Below, in pieces: positions 13,157 through 63,198 of a stretch of 64,000 bases of DNA. The stretch's first letter is position 1; each line of letters opens with the position of its first letter. The translations under genes were made by a program, and so were the position numbers. Source of the DNA: Shigella phage ESh27. The stretch is taken from the sequence record ON528737; one strand, given 5' to 3'. The notes beneath the pieces were generated by a model that saw only the letters and a list, made by a program, of their open reading frames with translations, did no database searches and had not been told where the DNA came from.

Positions 13157-13304
13157 AAGAGCAATTCTTAGTGGAAACCAAGAAAAAGGACTTTGAGATA
13201 TGGTATCGAATGGTGAAAGGGTTGGCATTGCTTCTTAAAGCATCACCATTCATGTTAGAACAACCTGGTCCTGATGGTCCTTTAGTCGGAAAGCTTAAAA
13301 AGTA

Positions 13305-13345
13305 GTTTACAACCCCTCCTCTTATGTTATGATAGACTTATCTTT
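13305..13345 (+). promoter_or_regulatory. early promoter
   Basis: -35 GTTTAC 13305-13310, 17 bp, -10 TATGAT 13328-13333, then AGACTTATC. Confidence 0.45.
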
Positions 13346-13552
13346 AAACGGAGGTCTATCATGACATGTCAATCTGAACAAGAGTACATGGTCTCGGGTA
13401 TCTCTAAATTTGAGATTGTGGAAATTGAAGACTTAGAATATATCCCTTTATCTCGATTATACAAAATCATTCATTTGAAAATGTTGAATTTTTAGTGTAC
13501 AAACTCTTCCGATGATGATACTATACCTTTATCAACCATAGGAGAAACCTAA

Positions 13553-29402: not shown

Positions 29403-29410
29403 TTTATATA

Positions 29411-29446
29411 GGCCTATTAAGTTAGGCCTTTAATTTATTTTTTGAG
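29411..29446 (+). terminator. terminator-like hairpin
   Basis: GGCCTA-TTAAGT-TAGGCC followed by T-rich run. Confidence 0.45.
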
Positions 29447-29455
29447 GTAATTAAA

Positions 29456-29602
29456 ATGGTAGCATGGATTATTGCATTGCTGTGTTGGTCGTTTTTATTC
29501 GTTAACACTTTAGTTACGGGCGAAACAACAGTATTTCAACAGGCCGTATCACAAGGTACCTTAGCAGTCTTAGCTCTTATTAACGTGTTAAAAGGCGAGT
29601 AA
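29456..29602 (+). CDS. small hydrophobic protein (ac-like position)
   Basis: 48 aa, one TM helix; found by hand-translation. Confidence 0.35.
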   Translation: MVAWIIALLCWSFLFVNTLVTGETTVFQQAVSQGTLAVLALINVLKGE

Positions 29603-29742
29603 TGATTAAGAAAATCTTAACAGGAGCCTTCGGGCTCTTGTTGTTGCTTACGGTTCTGTACTACGGTGTGATGTTTGGACTAATCCAAGTAGTGCTTTTC
29701 ATTTCAGATGTTATAATGGTTATTCGTTCATTAATATGGTGA
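29602..29742 (+). CDS. small hydrophobic protein
   Basis: 46 aa, hydrophobic; ATG overlaps upstream stop. Confidence 0.35.
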   Translation: MIKKILTGAFGLLLLLTVLYYGVMFGLIQVVLFISDVIMVIRSLIW

Positions 29743-29746
29743 AAAT

Positions 29747-59443: not shown

Positions 59444-60436
59444 ATGTTACCTGTCGTCGGAAAACTTATTTCTCCAAAAGAACTGGCTGAGATTATTCCT
59501 TTGTCGGAAGCTTACGCATCACAAGTGGCTTCTCATCGCGAACAAGTTAATTCGATTATGAATGGTGAAGACCCACGCAAACTTATTGTTGTAGGTCCTT
59601 GTTCAATTCATGACCCTATTGCTGCTGTTGAATACGGCAAACGTCTGGCTGAACTTCAAACTCGTCTTCCTAATGTTCTGTTAGTGATGCGCGTTTATTT
59701 TGAAAAGCCTCGAACTACCGTAGGTTGGAAAGGTCTTGTAAATGATCCATATCTTGACGGAAGTTTTGATATGAACCACGGTCTTATAGTTGCACGAACA
59801 TTGTGTCGTAAACTTCTACGTATGGGACTTCCATTAGCAACTGAAGTATTAGACCCATTCACGATTAAGTATCTTTCTGGTATTTTCTCATGGGTTGCTA
59901 TTGGCGCCCGTACGACTGAAAGTCAGACACATCGTGAAATTGCTTCAGGTCTACCGATGTGCGTAGGCTTTAAGAACGCAACCAATGGTTCTATTAAAGT
60001 AGCTACAGACGCGATGTATAGTGCCGCCTGGCCTCATCGGTATATGGGTATGGACGTCGATGGTACTGTAGGCATTGTTGAAGCTGAAGGTAATCAGAAT
60101 ACGCATATCGTATTGCGTGGCGGGACCAACGGCCCGAACTATCATTCTTCTGATATTCAAGAAGCTTCTAACAAAGCAAGGGCAGTAGGTCTGAATCATT
60201 ATGTAATGGTTGACTGTAGCCATGCAAACGCTGATGGGCATTATAGCAATCAAATTGGTATTGGTAAAAATTTAGCAGCTAATGATTTGGTCAAAGGAAT
60301 TATGATAGAATCGTTCCTACATGAAGGAAATCAAAAAATTTCTGATAATATGTCCTATGGCGTTTCCGTTACCGATGCGTGCATCAGTTGGGAACAAACT
60401 AAAGAGCTGTTAACTTATATTAATAAGGTTCAATAA
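59444..60436 (+). CDS. 3-deoxy-D-arabino-heptulosonate-7-phosphate (DAHP) synthase, class I
   Basis: 330 aa; long blocks matching bacterial AroG-type DAHP synthase as remembered (GPCSIHDP, MRVYFEKPRTTVGWKGL, GARTTESQ.HRE, GFKN, ESFLHEGNQ). Confidence 0.85.
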   Translation: MLPVVGKLISPKELAEIIPLSEAYASQVASHREQVNSIMNGEDPRKLIVVGPCSIHDPIAAVEYGKRLAELQTRLPNVLLVMRVYFEKPRTTVGWKGLVNDPYLDGSFDMNHGLIVARTLCRKLLRMGLPLATEVLDPFTIKYLSGIFSWVAIGARTTESQTHREIASGLPMCVGFKNATNGSIKVATDAMYSAAWPHRYMGMDVDGTVGIVEAEGNQNTHIVLRGGTNGPNYHSSDIQEASNKARAVGLNHYVMVDCSHANADGHYSNQIGIGKNLAANDLVKGIMIESFLHEGNQKISDNMSYGVSVTDACISWEQTKELLTYINKVQ

Positions 60437-61372: not shown

Positions 61373-61705
61373 ATGTCTGAAGTACAACTCCCAATTCGTG
61401 CTGTTGGTGAATATGTCATTCTGGTTTCTGAACCCGCTCAAGCAGGTGATGAAGAAGTTACCGAATCAGGACTTGTGATTGGTAAACGTGTTCAAGGTGA
61501 AGTTCCTGAACTATGTGTAGTTCATTCTGTAGGTCCTGATGTTCCTGAAGGTTTTGTTGAAGTCGGTGATTTGACTCCACTACCAGTTGGACAAATTCGA
61601 AATGTTCCACATCCATTTGTGGCTTTAGGTCTTAAACAACCTAAAGAAATTAAACAGAAATTCGTAACATGCCACTATAAAGCTATTCCGTGTCTTTATA
61701 AGTGA
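61373..61705 (+). CDS. 31: gp31 GroES-like co-chaperonin
   Basis: 110 aa; block [26 protein letters not shown] and C-terminus [10 protein letters not shown]; middle promoter upstream. Confidence 0.85.
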
Positions 61706-61829: not shown

Positions 61830-62078
61830 ATGATTAAACAATTACAACACGCTCTTGAACTGCAACGCAACGCATGGAATAATGGCCACGAAAACTACGG
61901 CGCGTCAATTGATGTTGAAGCCGAAGCACTGGAAATCCTGCGATATTTCAAACATCTGAATCCAGCACAGGCCGATCTTCGTGATATCCTGGCTCAGAAA
62001 GATGAATTGAAATATGCTAAGCCTCTGGCTTCAGCAGCTCGTAAAGCAGTTCGTCATTTTGTTATTACCCTGAAGTAA
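61830..62078 (+). CDS. rIII: rIII lysis-inhibition accessory protein
   Basis: 82 aa; size and position downstream of gene 31; TATAAATA upstream. Confidence 0.65.
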   Translation: MIKQLQHALELQRNAWNNGHENYGASIDVEAEALEILRYFKHLNPAQADLRDILAQKDELKYAKPLASAARKAVRHFVITLK

Positions 62079-62448
62079 GTTAAATCGAGGAGCCGTCGAA
62101 TTGTCTGATTATCGATTTGCGAATCGGTATGTTTTAGAAGTACCGCCCCGACAATTTTACGGTGTACCTCTTGAATGTTGTTCTTATAACGGTAAGTGCA
62201 TGCTACCCCGAGGTGATGGCTAATCGGGAGTACGCCTCAAGGCCTATATATCCATCAGTATATATCTTATCCTCGAGAAATCGAACCCGGAACCTTTAAG
62301 CTAACGGTGTGCAACAGATAAGAGTTATAAGGTATGATGACGGGTTTATGGTTATCCTGTCGTTAAATATCCAAAACCTATGTTCCCCTTGAGGGCTTGA
62401 GCAGGCAATGTCAATAAGTCCTGCATTTTCATTTAAAGAGAATTTATA

Positions 62449-62625
62449 ATGGCAAAACAAACTAAAGCAAAGAAAGCAGTTGAAAAGAAAGTCGGTGATT
62501 CTAAACGCGCTGGATACAAGCGTGGGTCGAACTCTCGTATTAATCAAACAGTTGAGAAGATCATGCGCAGAGCACGTGCAGTTCTTCGAGATGATGCTTC
62601 TCGTTTTGGAAAGGTTGTTGCATAA
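62449..62625 (+). CDS. hypothetical small basic protein
   Basis: 58 aa, Lys/Arg-rich; followed by strong terminator; found by hand-translation. Confidence 0.35.
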   Translation: MAKQTKAKKAVEKKVGDSKRAGYKRGSNSRINQTVEKIMRRARAVLRDDASRFGKVVA

Positions 62626-62630
62626 TTTTA

Positions 62631-62654
62631 GGGAGACTTCGGTCTCCCTTTTGT
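62631..62654 (+). terminator. intrinsic terminator
   Basis: GGGAGAC-TTCG-GTCTCCC hairpin + TTTT. Confidence 0.7.
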
Positions 62655-62684
62655 GTGTTTAGGGCAGAAAAAGTTTAAAAAGAT

Positions 62685-62722
62685 GTTTACTCTCCTGTAG
62701 GATGTGTTACTATAGACTTGTA
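62685..62722 (+). promoter_or_regulatory. early promoter
   Basis: -35 GTTTAC 62685-62690, 17 bp, -10 TACTAT 62708-62713. Confidence 0.45.
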
Positions 62723-62755
62723 CCACCTAATCAATAAAACAAACTGGAGAATAAA

Positions 62756-63124: not shown

Positions 63125-63128
63125 AACA

Positions 63129-63165
63129 GTTTACTTTGGTACAGGTTATGTTATTATAGACCTGT
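63129..63165 (+). promoter_or_regulatory. early promoter within inverted repeat
   Basis: -35 GTTTAC 63129-63134, 17 bp, -10 TATTAT 63152-63157 inside GGTACAGG...CCTGTACC. Confidence 0.45.
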
Positions 63166-63198
63166 ACCAACAAACAACTTAAACATCCGGAGAATAAA

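What the first reader, a model, noticed from the sequence alone, without database searches (positions are those of the whole stretch)
62079..62448. About 370-bp ORF-free, GC-enriched spacer downstream of rIII
No plus-strand ORF of 60 aa or more, several GC-rich hairpins (GGTAAGTGCATGCTACC; GACGGG...CCTGTC) and composition unlike the AT-rich surroundings. In a genome this tightly packed that suggests a structured RNA or a decayed gene/mobile element remnant.
Basis: seen in the sequence. Interest (0 to 1): 0.5.

Follow-up and report, generated by a model that had tools for sequence, protein, structure and literature searches.

The report
New structured RNA in T4-like phages
The gap between the phage genes rIII and 30.9 is not junk or a dead gene: it encodes a string of folded RNA modules, the largest being a ~150-base, intricately folded RNA that matches no catalogued RNA family, is kept in hundreds of T4-like phages (though not T4 itself), and has an unknown job.

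Summary
The spacer is real and non-coding, but its GC enrichment is modest (0.416 against 0.378; top 8% of windows). It is a chain of RNA modules on the + strand, co-transcribed with rIII and 30.9.

The centrepiece (62183-62331) is a 149-nt RNA: a four-way junction (P0, P1-PA, PB, PD with PC and PE) locked by a 6-bp kissing-loop contact. In 23 distinct sequences 96% of cells pair, against 27-43% in slid controls. Of 39 pairs, 32 show compensatory changes, and six different kissing sequences all stay complementary.

- All six frames carry stops.
- G·U pairs point to the + strand.
- The RNA is more conserved (89-97%) than the flanking genes in all but the four most divergent phages.
- It matches no Rfam 15 family, tRNA, E. 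coli genome or plasmid.
- Two exact or degenerate core patterns found nothing in 185,579 species genomes.
- About 400 phage records carry it. T4 lacks exactly this module.
- In Pseudotevenvirus it sits at another locus (uvsY-uvsW).

Downstream lie a conserved pseudoknot (62339-62382) and hairpins before the 30.9 start. In related phages the same spacer carries a mimic of the ToxI antitoxin RNA.

Function is unknown. My best guess is a protein-binding accessory or anti-defence RNA.

The parts
62087..62170 (+). M1: long irregular hairpin just after the rIII stop. Outer helix GAGGAGCCGUCGAAUUGUC (62087-62105) pairs with GACAAUUUUACGGUGUACCUC (62150-62170). Inner hairpin CGAUU-UGCG-AAUCG is at 62113-62126; an overlapping alternative hairpin is at 62125-62145. 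Contains a GGAG at 62089-62092.
   Evidence: RNAalifold consensus on 12 distinct sequences. Compensatory changes are read directly: CCGUC/UACGG to CCAUC/UAUGG, and GAACUGUC/GACAGUU to GAAUUGUC/GACAAUU. Present in T4.
62183..62331 (+). Core RNA, 149 nt: a closed domain with a four-way junction. The covariance-model hit spans the whole model.
   Evidence: CM R1 hit at 184.8 bits, E = 1e-41, and the only hit in the 64-kb window.
62183..62190 (+). P0 5' strand CUUAUAAC, pairing with GUUAUAAG at 62324-62331. This is the closing stem of the core.
   Evidence: All 8 pairs show changes on both sides. Examples: UUAUAAGC/GCUUAUAA, UAAAC/GUUUA, AUAUUAC/GUAGUAU, AAUUGUAG/CUACGAUU.
62191..62193 (+). P1 5' strand GGU, pairing with GCC at 62242-62244.
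   Evidence: 100% paired in 23 sequences. Seen as GGC/GCC, GGU/GCC and GGU/ACC.
62194..62203 (+). J1, AAGUGCAUGC. AAGnGCAU is invariant and unpaired in the model; it may pair with GUGC at 62309-62312 (untestable because both are invariant).
   Evidence: Alignments.
62204..62232 (+). Arm PA: UACCCCGA (62204-62211) pairs with UCGGG-A-GUA (62224-62232), with a conserved bulged A. Loop A is GGUGAUGGCUAA (62212-62223).
   Evidence: All 8 pairs have compensatory changes and 98.9% of cells are paired.
62214..62219 (+). Kissing-loop strand A, UGAUGG, pairing with CCAUCA at 62252-62257 in loop B.
   Evidence: Six sequence variants are all complementary: CGAUGG/CCAUCG, UGAUGG/CCAUCA, CUAUGG/CCAUAG, CAAUGA/UCAUUG, UUGUAUU/AAUACAA, UGCAUU/AAUGCA. 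95.8% of cells pair even on an alignment not fitted to this helix.
62233..62241 (+). J2, CGCCUCAAG. Its GCC may pair with GGY at the start of loop A. This tertiary helix is tentative.
   Evidence: Read directly from the sequences: GGC/GCC, GGU/GCC, and GGU/ACC in JC221. Not tested formally.
62245..62264 (+). Arm PB: UAUAUA (62245-62250) pairs with UAUAUA (62259-62264). Loop B is UCCAUCAG (62251-62258).
   Evidence: 100% paired; 4 of 6 pairs have compensatory changes.
62265..62323 (+). 3' domain. PD: UCUUAUC (62265-62271) pairs with GAUAAGA (62317-62323). It encloses PC, UCGA-GAAA-UCGA (62273-62284, GNRA loop), and PE, CCG (62287-62289) pairing with CGG (62305-62307). Also contains the near-invariant loop E GAACCUUUAAGCUAA (62290-62304) and strand UGUGCAACA (62308-62316).
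   Evidence: PD has 5 of 7, PC 4 of 4 and PE 2 of 3 pairs with compensatory change. GCUAAYRGUGUGCAAC is conserved in every member, including those at the second locus.
62339..62382 (+). M3: H-type pseudoknot. Stem 1 is GACGGG (62339-62344) with CCUGUC (62356-62361). The loop UUUAUGGUUAU (62345-62355) pairs with AACCUAUG (62375-62382). The linking strand GUUAAAUAUCCAAAA (62362-62376) is conserved and A-rich.
   Evidence: 80.7% of cells pair against 37-54% when slid; covariation score 0.372 against 0.05-0.14. Stem 2 variants: UUAGUAGUU/AACUACUAA, UUGUGAG/CUCACAA, CAAGGUU/AAUCUUG. Present in every rIII-30.9 spacer examined, T4 included.
62382..62399 (+). M4: small conserved hairpin GUUCCCCUUGAGGGCUUG.
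   Evidence: Invariant block in the six-genus alignment and the only match in the window. It also accompanies the core at the second locus.
62401..62424 (+). M5: variable hairpin, GCAGG (62401-62405) with CCUGC (62420-62424).
   Evidence: Compensatory replacements read directly: GGGAGC/GCUCCC, GAGAGG/CCUCUC, GGGAAC/GUUCCC.
62435..62451 (+). Ribosome-binding region AAAGAGAA and the ATG of gene 30.9 (62449). The region can pair weakly with UUUUC upstream.
   Evidence: Sequence and MFE fold. 30.9 identity rests on PHROG 1427 and the T4 annotation.

Best explanation
SHOWN. The rIII-30.9 spacer is a non-coding stretch of one polycistronic transcript. The transcript probably starts from a late-promoter motif and a sigma-70-like site upstream of rIII, both read from the sequence, and ends at the terminator at 62630-62649. 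It folds into a string of independent RNA modules. The main one (62183-62331) is a 149-nt RNA not found in any catalogue searched here. A closing stem opens into a perfect four-way junction. Two neighbouring arms are clamped by a 6-bp loop-loop kiss. A third arm carries a nearly invariant asymmetric internal-loop region (ACCCGGAmCC...GCUAAyrGUGUGCAAC). That is the signature of a specific binding pocket or active site.

INFERRED. The module is self-contained. It is present or absent as a unit. It occurs at two unrelated loci, including 3'-UTR-like positions with no co-oriented gene downstream. It travels with other small RNA modules, one of which in sister phages copies the ToxI antitoxin RNA. 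I therefore think it most likely works as an accessory, protein-binding RNA: a decoy or inhibitor of a host (Enterobacterales) factor, plausibly an anti-phage defence component. It would act either from within the mRNA or after excision. I think this more likely than a switch for gene 30.9. The target is unknown.
For: Structure:
- On the CM-fitted alignment, 96.3% of 896 cells pair, against 27-43% when partners are slid. 32 of 39 pairs have compensatory changes. 0 of 500 shuffles reach the observed value on any measure.
- The unfitted MAFFT alignment of 20 sequences gives 95.7% against 27-40%.
- The kissing helix holds through six sequence variants.

Strand: 26 G·U against 6 A·C cells.

Non-coding: stops in every frame with one exception, and no periodicity.

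Selection: core identity is 89-97%, against rIII 73-86% and 30.9 46-89%, in nine of the 13 comparisons with this window.

Autonomy:
- T4 lacks exactly this module.
- 20 of 46 rIII loci in IMG/VR carry it.
- It also lies in the uvsY-uvsW gap of Pseudotevenvirus JC221 and phi5, but not of RB43.

Not a known family: no Rfam hit in the window or in four divergent members, no tRNA, and unrelated to T4 rnaC/rnaD.

Anti-defence context: the same spacer in Klebsiella phages holds a unit matching about 29 of the 36 nt of a ToxI repeat (by eye). That unit hits tandem arrays next to ToxN toxin genes on plasmids.

No promoter-like or terminator-like site inside the spacer.
Against: - Nothing here measures function, expression or processing.
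- Unlike the ToxI mimic, the core has no detectable bacterial counterpart: none in E. coli genomes, plasmids or GTDB species genomes. So it is not a simple copy of a host RNA.
- The anti-defence reading rests on association with a module that this window itself lacks.
- The element is single-copy, whereas ToxI-type decoys need repeats to work (PMC3475682).
- T4 and more than half of its relatives do without it.
- In the large majority of records, all but the two Pseudotevenvirus ones, it sits directly upstream of 30.9, which fits a cis role just as well.
- Most sequences are closely related, so pair counts overstate the number of independent events. I count roughly eight lineages.
Confidence: 0.4

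Rival explanations
1. Cis-regulatory leader of gene 30.9. The core, or the whole module string, is a riboswitch-like or protein-operated element. It would bind a small molecule or a protein, possibly the very basic 58-aa gp30.9 itself, and set translation or stability of the downstream 30.9 message.
For: - In all Tevenvirinae examined the core lies between rIII and 30.9, on the coding strand and with no terminator in between.
- It has aptamer-like features: a closing helix and conserved junction nucleotides.
- The 30.9 ribosome-binding region can be sequestered in a weak hairpin.
- gp30.9 is rich in Lys and Arg.
Against: - The sequence that follows the core differs between phages: M3 in this window, M4 in Klebsiella phages. 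So no fixed expression platform exists.
- T4 has a 98% identical gp30.9 and the same M3-M5 leader without the core.
- In JC221 and phi5 the core sits after the uvsY operon, followed by a terminator and a convergent gene, so there is nothing downstream to regulate.
- No riboswitch family matches.
Confidence: 0.25
2. A new self-cleaving ribozyme that cuts the rIII-30.9 transcript, or the uvsY operon 3' end, to uncouple the fates of neighbouring messages.
For: - The position is intercistronic or in a 3' UTR, with no fixed gene partner across loci.
- The compact fold has invariant unpaired nucleotides in one domain.
- From my own knowledge: a four-way junction that brings two adjacent arms together is how the natural hairpin ribozyme docks its loops, and a kissing loop is used by the VS ribozyme.
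Against: - No match to any ribozyme model in Rfam 15.
- No recognisable catalytic motif.
- 149 nt is large for a small self-cleaver.
- Nothing in the data points to a cleavage site.
Confidence: 0.1
3. Structural ballast. The long untranslated gap is kept highly folded only to block Rho loading or RNase attack, and the core has no specific partner.
For: - A 370-nt untranslated stretch inside an operon would otherwise be exposed to Rho and RNase E (from my own knowledge).
- The whole spacer is made of hairpins.
Against: Ballast would not need any of the following:
- Invariant single-stranded nucleotides.
- A kissing loop maintained through six sequence changes.
- 89-97% nucleotide identity across genera.

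In addition, T4 manages with a 244-nt spacer that lacks the core.
Confidence: 0.1
4. Decayed gene or mobile-element remnant, or an unannotated small protein gene.
For: - The core shows presence/absence polymorphism as a block.
- Some GenBank records annotate 'hypothetical proteins' over it.
Against: - Stops in all six frames in 24 of 25 members, and variable columns spread 31/31/33 over the three phases.
- Substitutions are paired across helices.
- No Pfam or PHROG hit for any ORF.
- Higher conservation than the flanking real genes in most comparisons.
- No repeats or target duplications at the borders.
Confidence: 0.03
5. A DNA-level signal, such as a replication origin, packaging site, recombination site or terminator, rather than an RNA.
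For: - Base-pair covariation alone cannot tell RNA from single-stranded DNA.
- One GenBank record annotates a terminator inside the core.
Against: - G·U (G·T) pairs are tolerated on the + strand only, 26 against 6.
- A GNRA tetraloop, a kissing loop and a pseudoknot are RNA hallmarks.
- No T-run follows any core helix, and the terminator scan finds nothing inside the spacer.
Confidence: 0.02

Closest known systems
ToxI / 'pseudo-ToxI' RNA antitoxin mimics (type III toxin-antitoxin ToxIN; phage PhiTE)
   Same: - A small folded RNA module carried in a non-coding stretch of a lytic phage.
- Sister phages carry a ToxI-like unit in this very spacer, next to the core.
- Phage PhiTE uses such a mimic to neutralise the ToxN nuclease (PMC3475682).
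   Different: - The core is 149 nt, single-copy and a four-way junction. ToxI is a 36-nt tandem pseudoknot.
- The core has no sequence similarity to ToxI or to any plasmid or bacterial RNA searched.
- This window has lost the ToxI-like unit and keeps only its last 9 nt.
PeSL cassettes (promoter-early stem-loops) of T4-type phages (PMC2839356, PMC4122927)
   Same: Short conserved non-coding modules that are shuffled between T4-like genomes and mark hyperplastic regions. The spacer's modules change order and occupancy between phages in the same way.
   Different: - PeSLs are a terminator hairpin plus an early promoter.
- The core has neither. It is far larger and has tertiary pairing.
- Genuine PeSL-like cassettes lie just downstream, at about 62627-62735 and 63125-63190.
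T4 stable RNAs rnaC and rnaD (species 1 and 2 RNAs, 139 and 119 nt)
   Same: Phage-encoded RNAs of similar size and still unknown function in the same virus group.
   Different: - Different locus (the tRNA cluster).
- No similarity: the model scores nothing there even with filters off.
- T4 lacks the core.
Four-way-junction RNAs with docking arms (natural hairpin ribozyme) and kissing-loop RNAs (VS ribozyme, purine riboswitch)
   Same: The architectural principle is shared: a junction without linker nucleotides places two adjacent arms side by side, and a loop-loop contact locks them. This comparison rests on my own knowledge of those structures.
   Different: - No sequence or model match.
- The contact here is a 6-7 bp Watson-Crick kiss between terminal loops, not internal-loop docking.
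- No catalytic or ligand-binding motif is recognisable.
H-type pseudoknots with an A-rich third loop (preQ1-I riboswitch, CptI antitoxin)
   Same: Module M3 (62339-62382) has two stems and a long conserved A-rich linking strand. CptI is described this way in PMC5086642.
   Different: - No Rfam PreQ1 hit even at E<=10.
- No similarity to plasmid or E. coli sequences.
- CptI and TenpI sequences could not be obtained for a direct comparison.
Orphan structured-RNA candidates from large phage surveys (10,006 csRNAs from IMG/VR; PMC10690425)
   Same: The same kind of object: a covarying intergenic RNA in phage genomes without an assigned function.
   Different: That paper's text does not mention T4-like phages or rIII, and its tables were not available. 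Whether this motif is in that list is unknown.

Membership tests
Any Rfam 15 family (4227 covariance models, including all riboswitch, ribozyme, tmRNA, 6S and phage motifs) | Score at or near the family's gathering threshold on sequence plus structure | tested here: not met
   Nothing overlaps the core apart from one chance-level hit (GlsR5, 11.9 bits against a cut-off of 100, E = 9.6). No hit on the core in four divergent members.
tRNA / tmRNA | Cloverleaf with anticodon arm and T-loop, as detected by ARAGORN | tested here: not met
   0 genes in the whole window.
Type III antitoxin RNA (ToxI family) | Sequence similarity to a toxI repeat | tested here: not met
   The window's spacer has no match in plasmids or E. 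coli genomes. The ToxI-like unit of sister phages does match plasmid arrays.
Type III antitoxin RNA (ToxI family) | Tandem repeats of 31-62 nt | tested here: not met
   The core is a single hit in 64 kb. The modules of the spacer differ from one another.
Type III antitoxin RNA (ToxI family) | Inhibits a cognate ToxN-type nuclease | not testable with these tools
   Needs co-expression or plating assays.
Riboswitch (cis-acting aptamer plus expression platform) | Constant position upstream of a functionally coherent gene set | tested here: not met
   Upstream of 30.9 in Tevenvirinae, but after the uvsY operon and facing a convergent gene in JC221 and phi5.
Riboswitch (cis-acting aptamer plus expression platform) | Conserved alternative pairing with a terminator or ribosome-binding site | tested here: not met
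   The 3' neighbour of P0 varies (M3, M4 or other) between phages.
Riboswitch (cis-acting aptamer plus expression platform) | Specific ligand binding | not testable with these tools
   Needs in-line probing or ITC.
Self-cleaving ribozyme | Site-specific self-scission | not testable with these tools
   Needs in-vitro transcription assays. No known ribozyme model matches.
PeSL cassette | Terminator-type stem-loop followed by a T4 early promoter | tested here: not met
   No promoter-like or terminator-like site inside 62079-62448.
Protein-coding gene or pseudogene (homing endonuclease, ligase fragment) | Open or recently open frame, codon-position bias, and homology to a protein family | tested here: not met
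   Stops in every frame with one exception, 31/31/33 variable columns per phase, and no Pfam or PHROG hit.
Conserved structured non-coding RNA (generic) | Base pairs maintained by compensatory substitutions well above controls | tested here: met
   for the core; for the pseudoknot.
Conserved structured non-coding RNA (generic) | Transcribed as RNA in infected cells | not tested
   No expression data were available. Transcription is inferred from its position inside an operon and from the strand-specific G·U pairs.

The most novel reading that the evidence does not exclude
The 149-nt core is the founding member of a new functional RNA class in T4-like phages. It is either an RNA-based inhibitor or decoy of an Enterobacterales defence or RNA-processing protein, or a new ribozyme or ligand-binding fold.
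Probability: 0.4. Interest if true: 0.85.

Novelty: new variant of a known kind. Interest (0 to 1): 0.7.

Why it matters
T4-like phages are among the best-studied viruses. Even so, this RNA appears to have gone unnoticed, probably because T4 itself lacks it and annotation pipelines either leave the gap empty or fill it with spurious 'hypothetical proteins'.

An RNA of this complexity usually binds something specific or catalyses something. It combines a four-way junction, a kissing loop and an invariant internal-loop domain. It is also held at 89-97% identity across most carrier genera while neighbouring genes drift.

Three features make it a candidate accessory or anti-defence RNA:
- It is present or absent as a block.
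- It appears at a second locus in another genus.
- It sits beside a ToxI antitoxin mimic in sister phages.

RNA-based counter-defence is a kind of phage weapon of which very few examples are known.

It is directly testable. The module can be deleted precisely, and natural isogenic-like pairs with and without it exist within Tequatrovirus. The finding also gives curators a model for annotating about 400 genomes, and for removing false ORFs.

Tried and rejected
- Rfam at permissive thresholds, on the window region and on four divergent members: only chance hits.
- ARAGORN: no tRNA or tmRNA.
- Thermodynamic folding of the whole spacer on either strand: z-scores not significant, so energy alone would have dismissed the region.
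- BLAST of the core and of the whole spacer against E. coli genomes and plasmids: nothing, or one chance 20-mer.
- Two pattern scans of 185,579 species genomes, one exact 20-mer and one degenerate two-block pattern: 0 hits.
- Metagenome scan: only more T4-like phages and one chance hit.
- Homology to T4 stable RNAs rnaC and rnaD: none.
- A leader peptide in M3 (AUGAUG...UAA, 10 codons): rejected, because the frame is not kept in relatives with 1-nt indels or early stops.
- The MFE pairing AGGGCUU/AAGUCCU across M4-M5: rejected in favour of the covarying M5 hairpin.
- gp30.9 against Pfam and PDB: no hits. PHROG 1427 is of unknown function.
- Literature: nothing found on an RNA in the rIII-30.9 gap.
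- TenpI and CptI repeat sequences could not be retrieved for comparison with M3.
- Other ORF-poor gaps in the window (13157-13531, 29403-29746) hold small ORFs and promoters, not copies of these modules.

Full report
WHERE WE ARE

The window is a T4-like phage. Over the spacer it is 98.9% identical to Mosigvirus phiC120. On the + strand the local genes run in this order:
- a DAHP synthase gene
- cd
- a 31.1-like gene
- gene 31 (61373-61705)
- rIII (61830-62078)
- the 370-bp spacer
- the homologue of T4 gene 30.9 (62449-62625)
- an intrinsic terminator (62630-62649)
- 30.8 and 30.7

The scan found no promoter-like or terminator-like site inside the spacer. It is therefore an internal untranslated part of an rIII-30.9 transcript.

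THE OBSERVATION

The + strand has no ORF longer than 45 aa in the spacer. The only longer ORF (83 aa, - strand) is antisense to 30.9. None of these ORFs hits a protein family.

GC enrichment is modest. The spacer is 0.416 against a window mean of 0.378, and 8% of windows are as high or higher. Whole-spacer folding energy is not unusual.

GGTAAG...CTACC is not the conserved pairing.

COMPARATIVE ANATOMY

BLAST finds the spacer in 996 phage records, but as a mosaic:
- T4-type phages match only the two ends.
- Klebsiella, Enterobacter, Raoultella and Kosakonia T4-like phages match only the middle ~147 nt, at 91-94%.

Alignment shows that T4 lacks exactly this middle block. Its spacer is 244 bp.

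I collected rIII-30.9 spacers from GenBank, IMG/VR and metagenomes. They are different orders and subsets of a few modules:
- M0, absent from this window
- M1
- the core
- an alternative module, M2b
- the M3 pseudoknot
- the M4 hairpin
- the variable M5 hairpin

THE CORE RNA (62183-62331)

By eye, and then formally, the core folds as follows:
- A closing stem P0 opens into a four-way junction with no linker nucleotides.
- Arm 1 is P1 followed by the long helix PA, which has a conserved bulged A.
- Arm 2 is hairpin PB.
- Arm 3 is PD. It encloses a GNRA hairpin (PC), a short helix (PE) and long, nearly invariant unpaired strands.
- Loop A and loop B form a 6-bp kiss.

The counts are:

| Alignment | Cells paired | Slid controls | Pairs with compensatory change |
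|---|---|---|---|
| Unfitted MAFFT, 20 sequences (includes the kiss) | 95.7% | 27-40% | 19 of 45 (3 in controls) |
| CM R1, divergent members added (includes the kiss) | 95.5% | not re-stated | 32 of 45 |
| CM R1, 23 distinct sequences including the second locus | 96.3% | 27-43% | 32 of 39 |

In the last alignment, 0 of 500 shuffles reach the observed value on any measure.

The kiss survives six different sequences: CGAUGG/CCAUCG, UGAUGG/CCAUCA, CUAUGG/CCAUAG, CAAUGA/UCAUUG, UUGUAUU/AAUACAA and UGCAUU/AAUGCA.

Other properties of the core:
- G·U cells outnumber A·C cells 26 to 6, which fixes the strand as +.
- The MFE fold of the window copy alone recovers 36 of the 39 model pairs.
- Stops occur in all six frames in every member but one (JC221 has one open frame). 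Variable columns are spread 31/31/33 over the three codon phases.
- Against this window, core identity is 89-97% where rIII is 73-86% and 30.9 is 46-89%. This holds in all but the four most divergent phages.

Caveats: many sequences are close relatives, and the CM-based alignments lean towards the model. Independent support comes from about eight lineages:
- Mosig- and Tequatrovirus
- Jiaodavirus
- Karam- and Kanagawavirus
- an Erwinia/Enterobacter group
- Serratia PS2-like phages
- EcS1
- Yersinia fHe-Yen9-01
- Pseudotevenvirus

DISTRIBUTION

About 400 phage records carry the conserved 3' domain. In IMG/VR, 20 of 46 rIII loci have the core. All hosts named are Enterobacterales.

Two Pseudotevenvirus phages carry a divergent but full-length copy in the uvsY-uvsW gap: JC221 (84 bits) and phi5 (78 bits). 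It is followed there by other hairpins and a terminator. RB43 lacks it at that locus.

No copy or relative was found in any of these:
- E. coli genomes
- plasmids
- 185,579 species genomes, by two pattern scans
- Rfam
- T4's rnaC and rnaD

THE OTHER MODULES IN THIS WINDOW

- M1 (62087-62170) is a long hairpin with compensatory changes.
- M3 (62339-62382) is an H-type pseudoknot with a conserved A-rich linker. It is present in every spacer examined, sometimes upstream of the core instead of downstream. It pairs in 80.7% of cells against 37-54% in controls.
- M4 (62382-62399) is a small, invariant hairpin that also accompanies the core at the second locus.
- M5 (62401-62424) covaries freely.
- The 30.9 ribosome-binding region follows.

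A CLUE FROM SISTER PHAGES

Module M0 lies in the same spacer of Klebsiella and other T4-like phages. It reads GGTGATTTGCTACCAAAGTGCAGCTAGAAAAT. The published 36-nt ToxI antitoxin repeat is AGGTGATTTGCTACCTTTAAGTGCAGCTAGAAATTC (PMC4010927, PMC8610362).

M0 hits arrays of 3-10 copies on small enterobacterial plasmids. In the one plasmid inspected, the array lies directly upstream of a ToxN/AbiQ toxin gene. About 200 phage records hold such a unit. Phage PhiTE is known to escape ToxIN with such a 'pseudo-ToxI' (PMC3475682).

This window keeps only the last 9 nt of M0. So at least one occupant of this spacer is an antitoxin mimic. That makes an anti-defence role for its neighbours plausible, but not shown.

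WHAT IT MOST LIKELY IS

Shown: a real, self-contained, complex RNA fold that matches no known family and is under strong purifying selection.

Inferred: it acts through a specific partner. The argument has four parts:
- It comes and goes as a block.
- It keeps its invariant pocket at two unrelated loci.
- Its 3' neighbours vary.
- At the second locus no gene follows it.

I therefore rank the readings as follows:

| Reading | Confidence |
|---|---|
| Protein-binding accessory or anti-defence RNA | 0.4 |
| 30.9 riboswitch or operator | 0.25 |
| New self-cleaving ribozyme | 0.1 |
| Structural ballast | 0.1 |
| Decayed gene or small protein | 0.03 |
| DNA-level signal | 0.02 |

That the structure itself is genuine I hold at about 0.95.

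NOVELTY

No paper found describes an RNA here. A large survey of phage RNAs could not be checked at table level.

I rate the core as a new family within the known kind 'structured non-coding RNAs of phages'. It would be a new functional class only if experiments bear out a decoy, ribozyme or ligand-binding role.

Noticed in passing
L005:2465-2497 (Klebsiella phage 15882-3), L004 (T4, between rIII and 30.9), L065:1555-1590; window keeps only 62079-62087: A single unit almost identical to the ToxI antitoxin RNA repeat of the ToxIN abortive-infection system sits in the rIII-30.9 spacer of many T4-like phages. About 200 phage records hold one, 163 of them Klebsiella phages. T4 has a degenerate copy. 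The same unit matches tandem arrays upstream of ToxN/AbiQ toxin genes on small enterobacterial plasmids. I found no report of this in T4-like phages.
   Followed up: partly
L065:1397-1552 (Yersinia phage JC221) and L068:896-1049 (Enterobacter phage phi5): The core RNA also occurs in a long non-coding stretch between the uvsY operon and uvsW in two Pseudotevenvirus phages, together with M0- and M4-like hairpins. RB43 lacks it there. In JC221 the non-coding stretch is about 700 nt and ends in a terminator, so it may be one long multi-domain RNA.
   Followed up: partly
L023, L025, L035 (between M1 and M3); L045, L034: An alternative ~45-nt module (CTATCATGCGTCAGAAAAGTGTTATCTGTGTAAGTCTTGGTGG, with a covarying CAGA/UCUG to CAGC/GCUG stem) occupies the place of the core in some Tequatrovirus spacers. 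The site seems to be a swap point for RNA cassettes.
   Followed up: no
window 59444-60436: A 330-aa DAHP synthase gene (phospho-2-dehydro-3-deoxyheptonate aldolase, first step of aromatic amino-acid synthesis) lies directly upstream of dCMP deaminase. This is an auxiliary metabolic gene that T4 does not have at this position.
   Followed up: no
window 62627-62735 and 63125-63190: Terminator hairpin plus T4 early-promoter-like cassettes (GTTTAC...TATAGA) follow 30.9 and 30.8. They look like the PeSL shuffling cassettes described for T4-type phages.
   Followed up: no
window 62336-62368: M3 begins with AUGAUG and reads as a 10-codon ORF ending at the conserved CGUUAA. Klebsiella phages also have a 10-codon ORF there, but other relatives break the frame. 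I judged it a by-product of the RNA structure.
   Followed up: yes
GenBank records MZ234027, PQ537375, OL362041, OR352951 and others over the spacer: Many deposited genomes annotate two or three 'hypothetical proteins', or even a 'glycogen branching enzyme', across this non-coding RNA region. These look like annotation artefacts.
   Followed up: no
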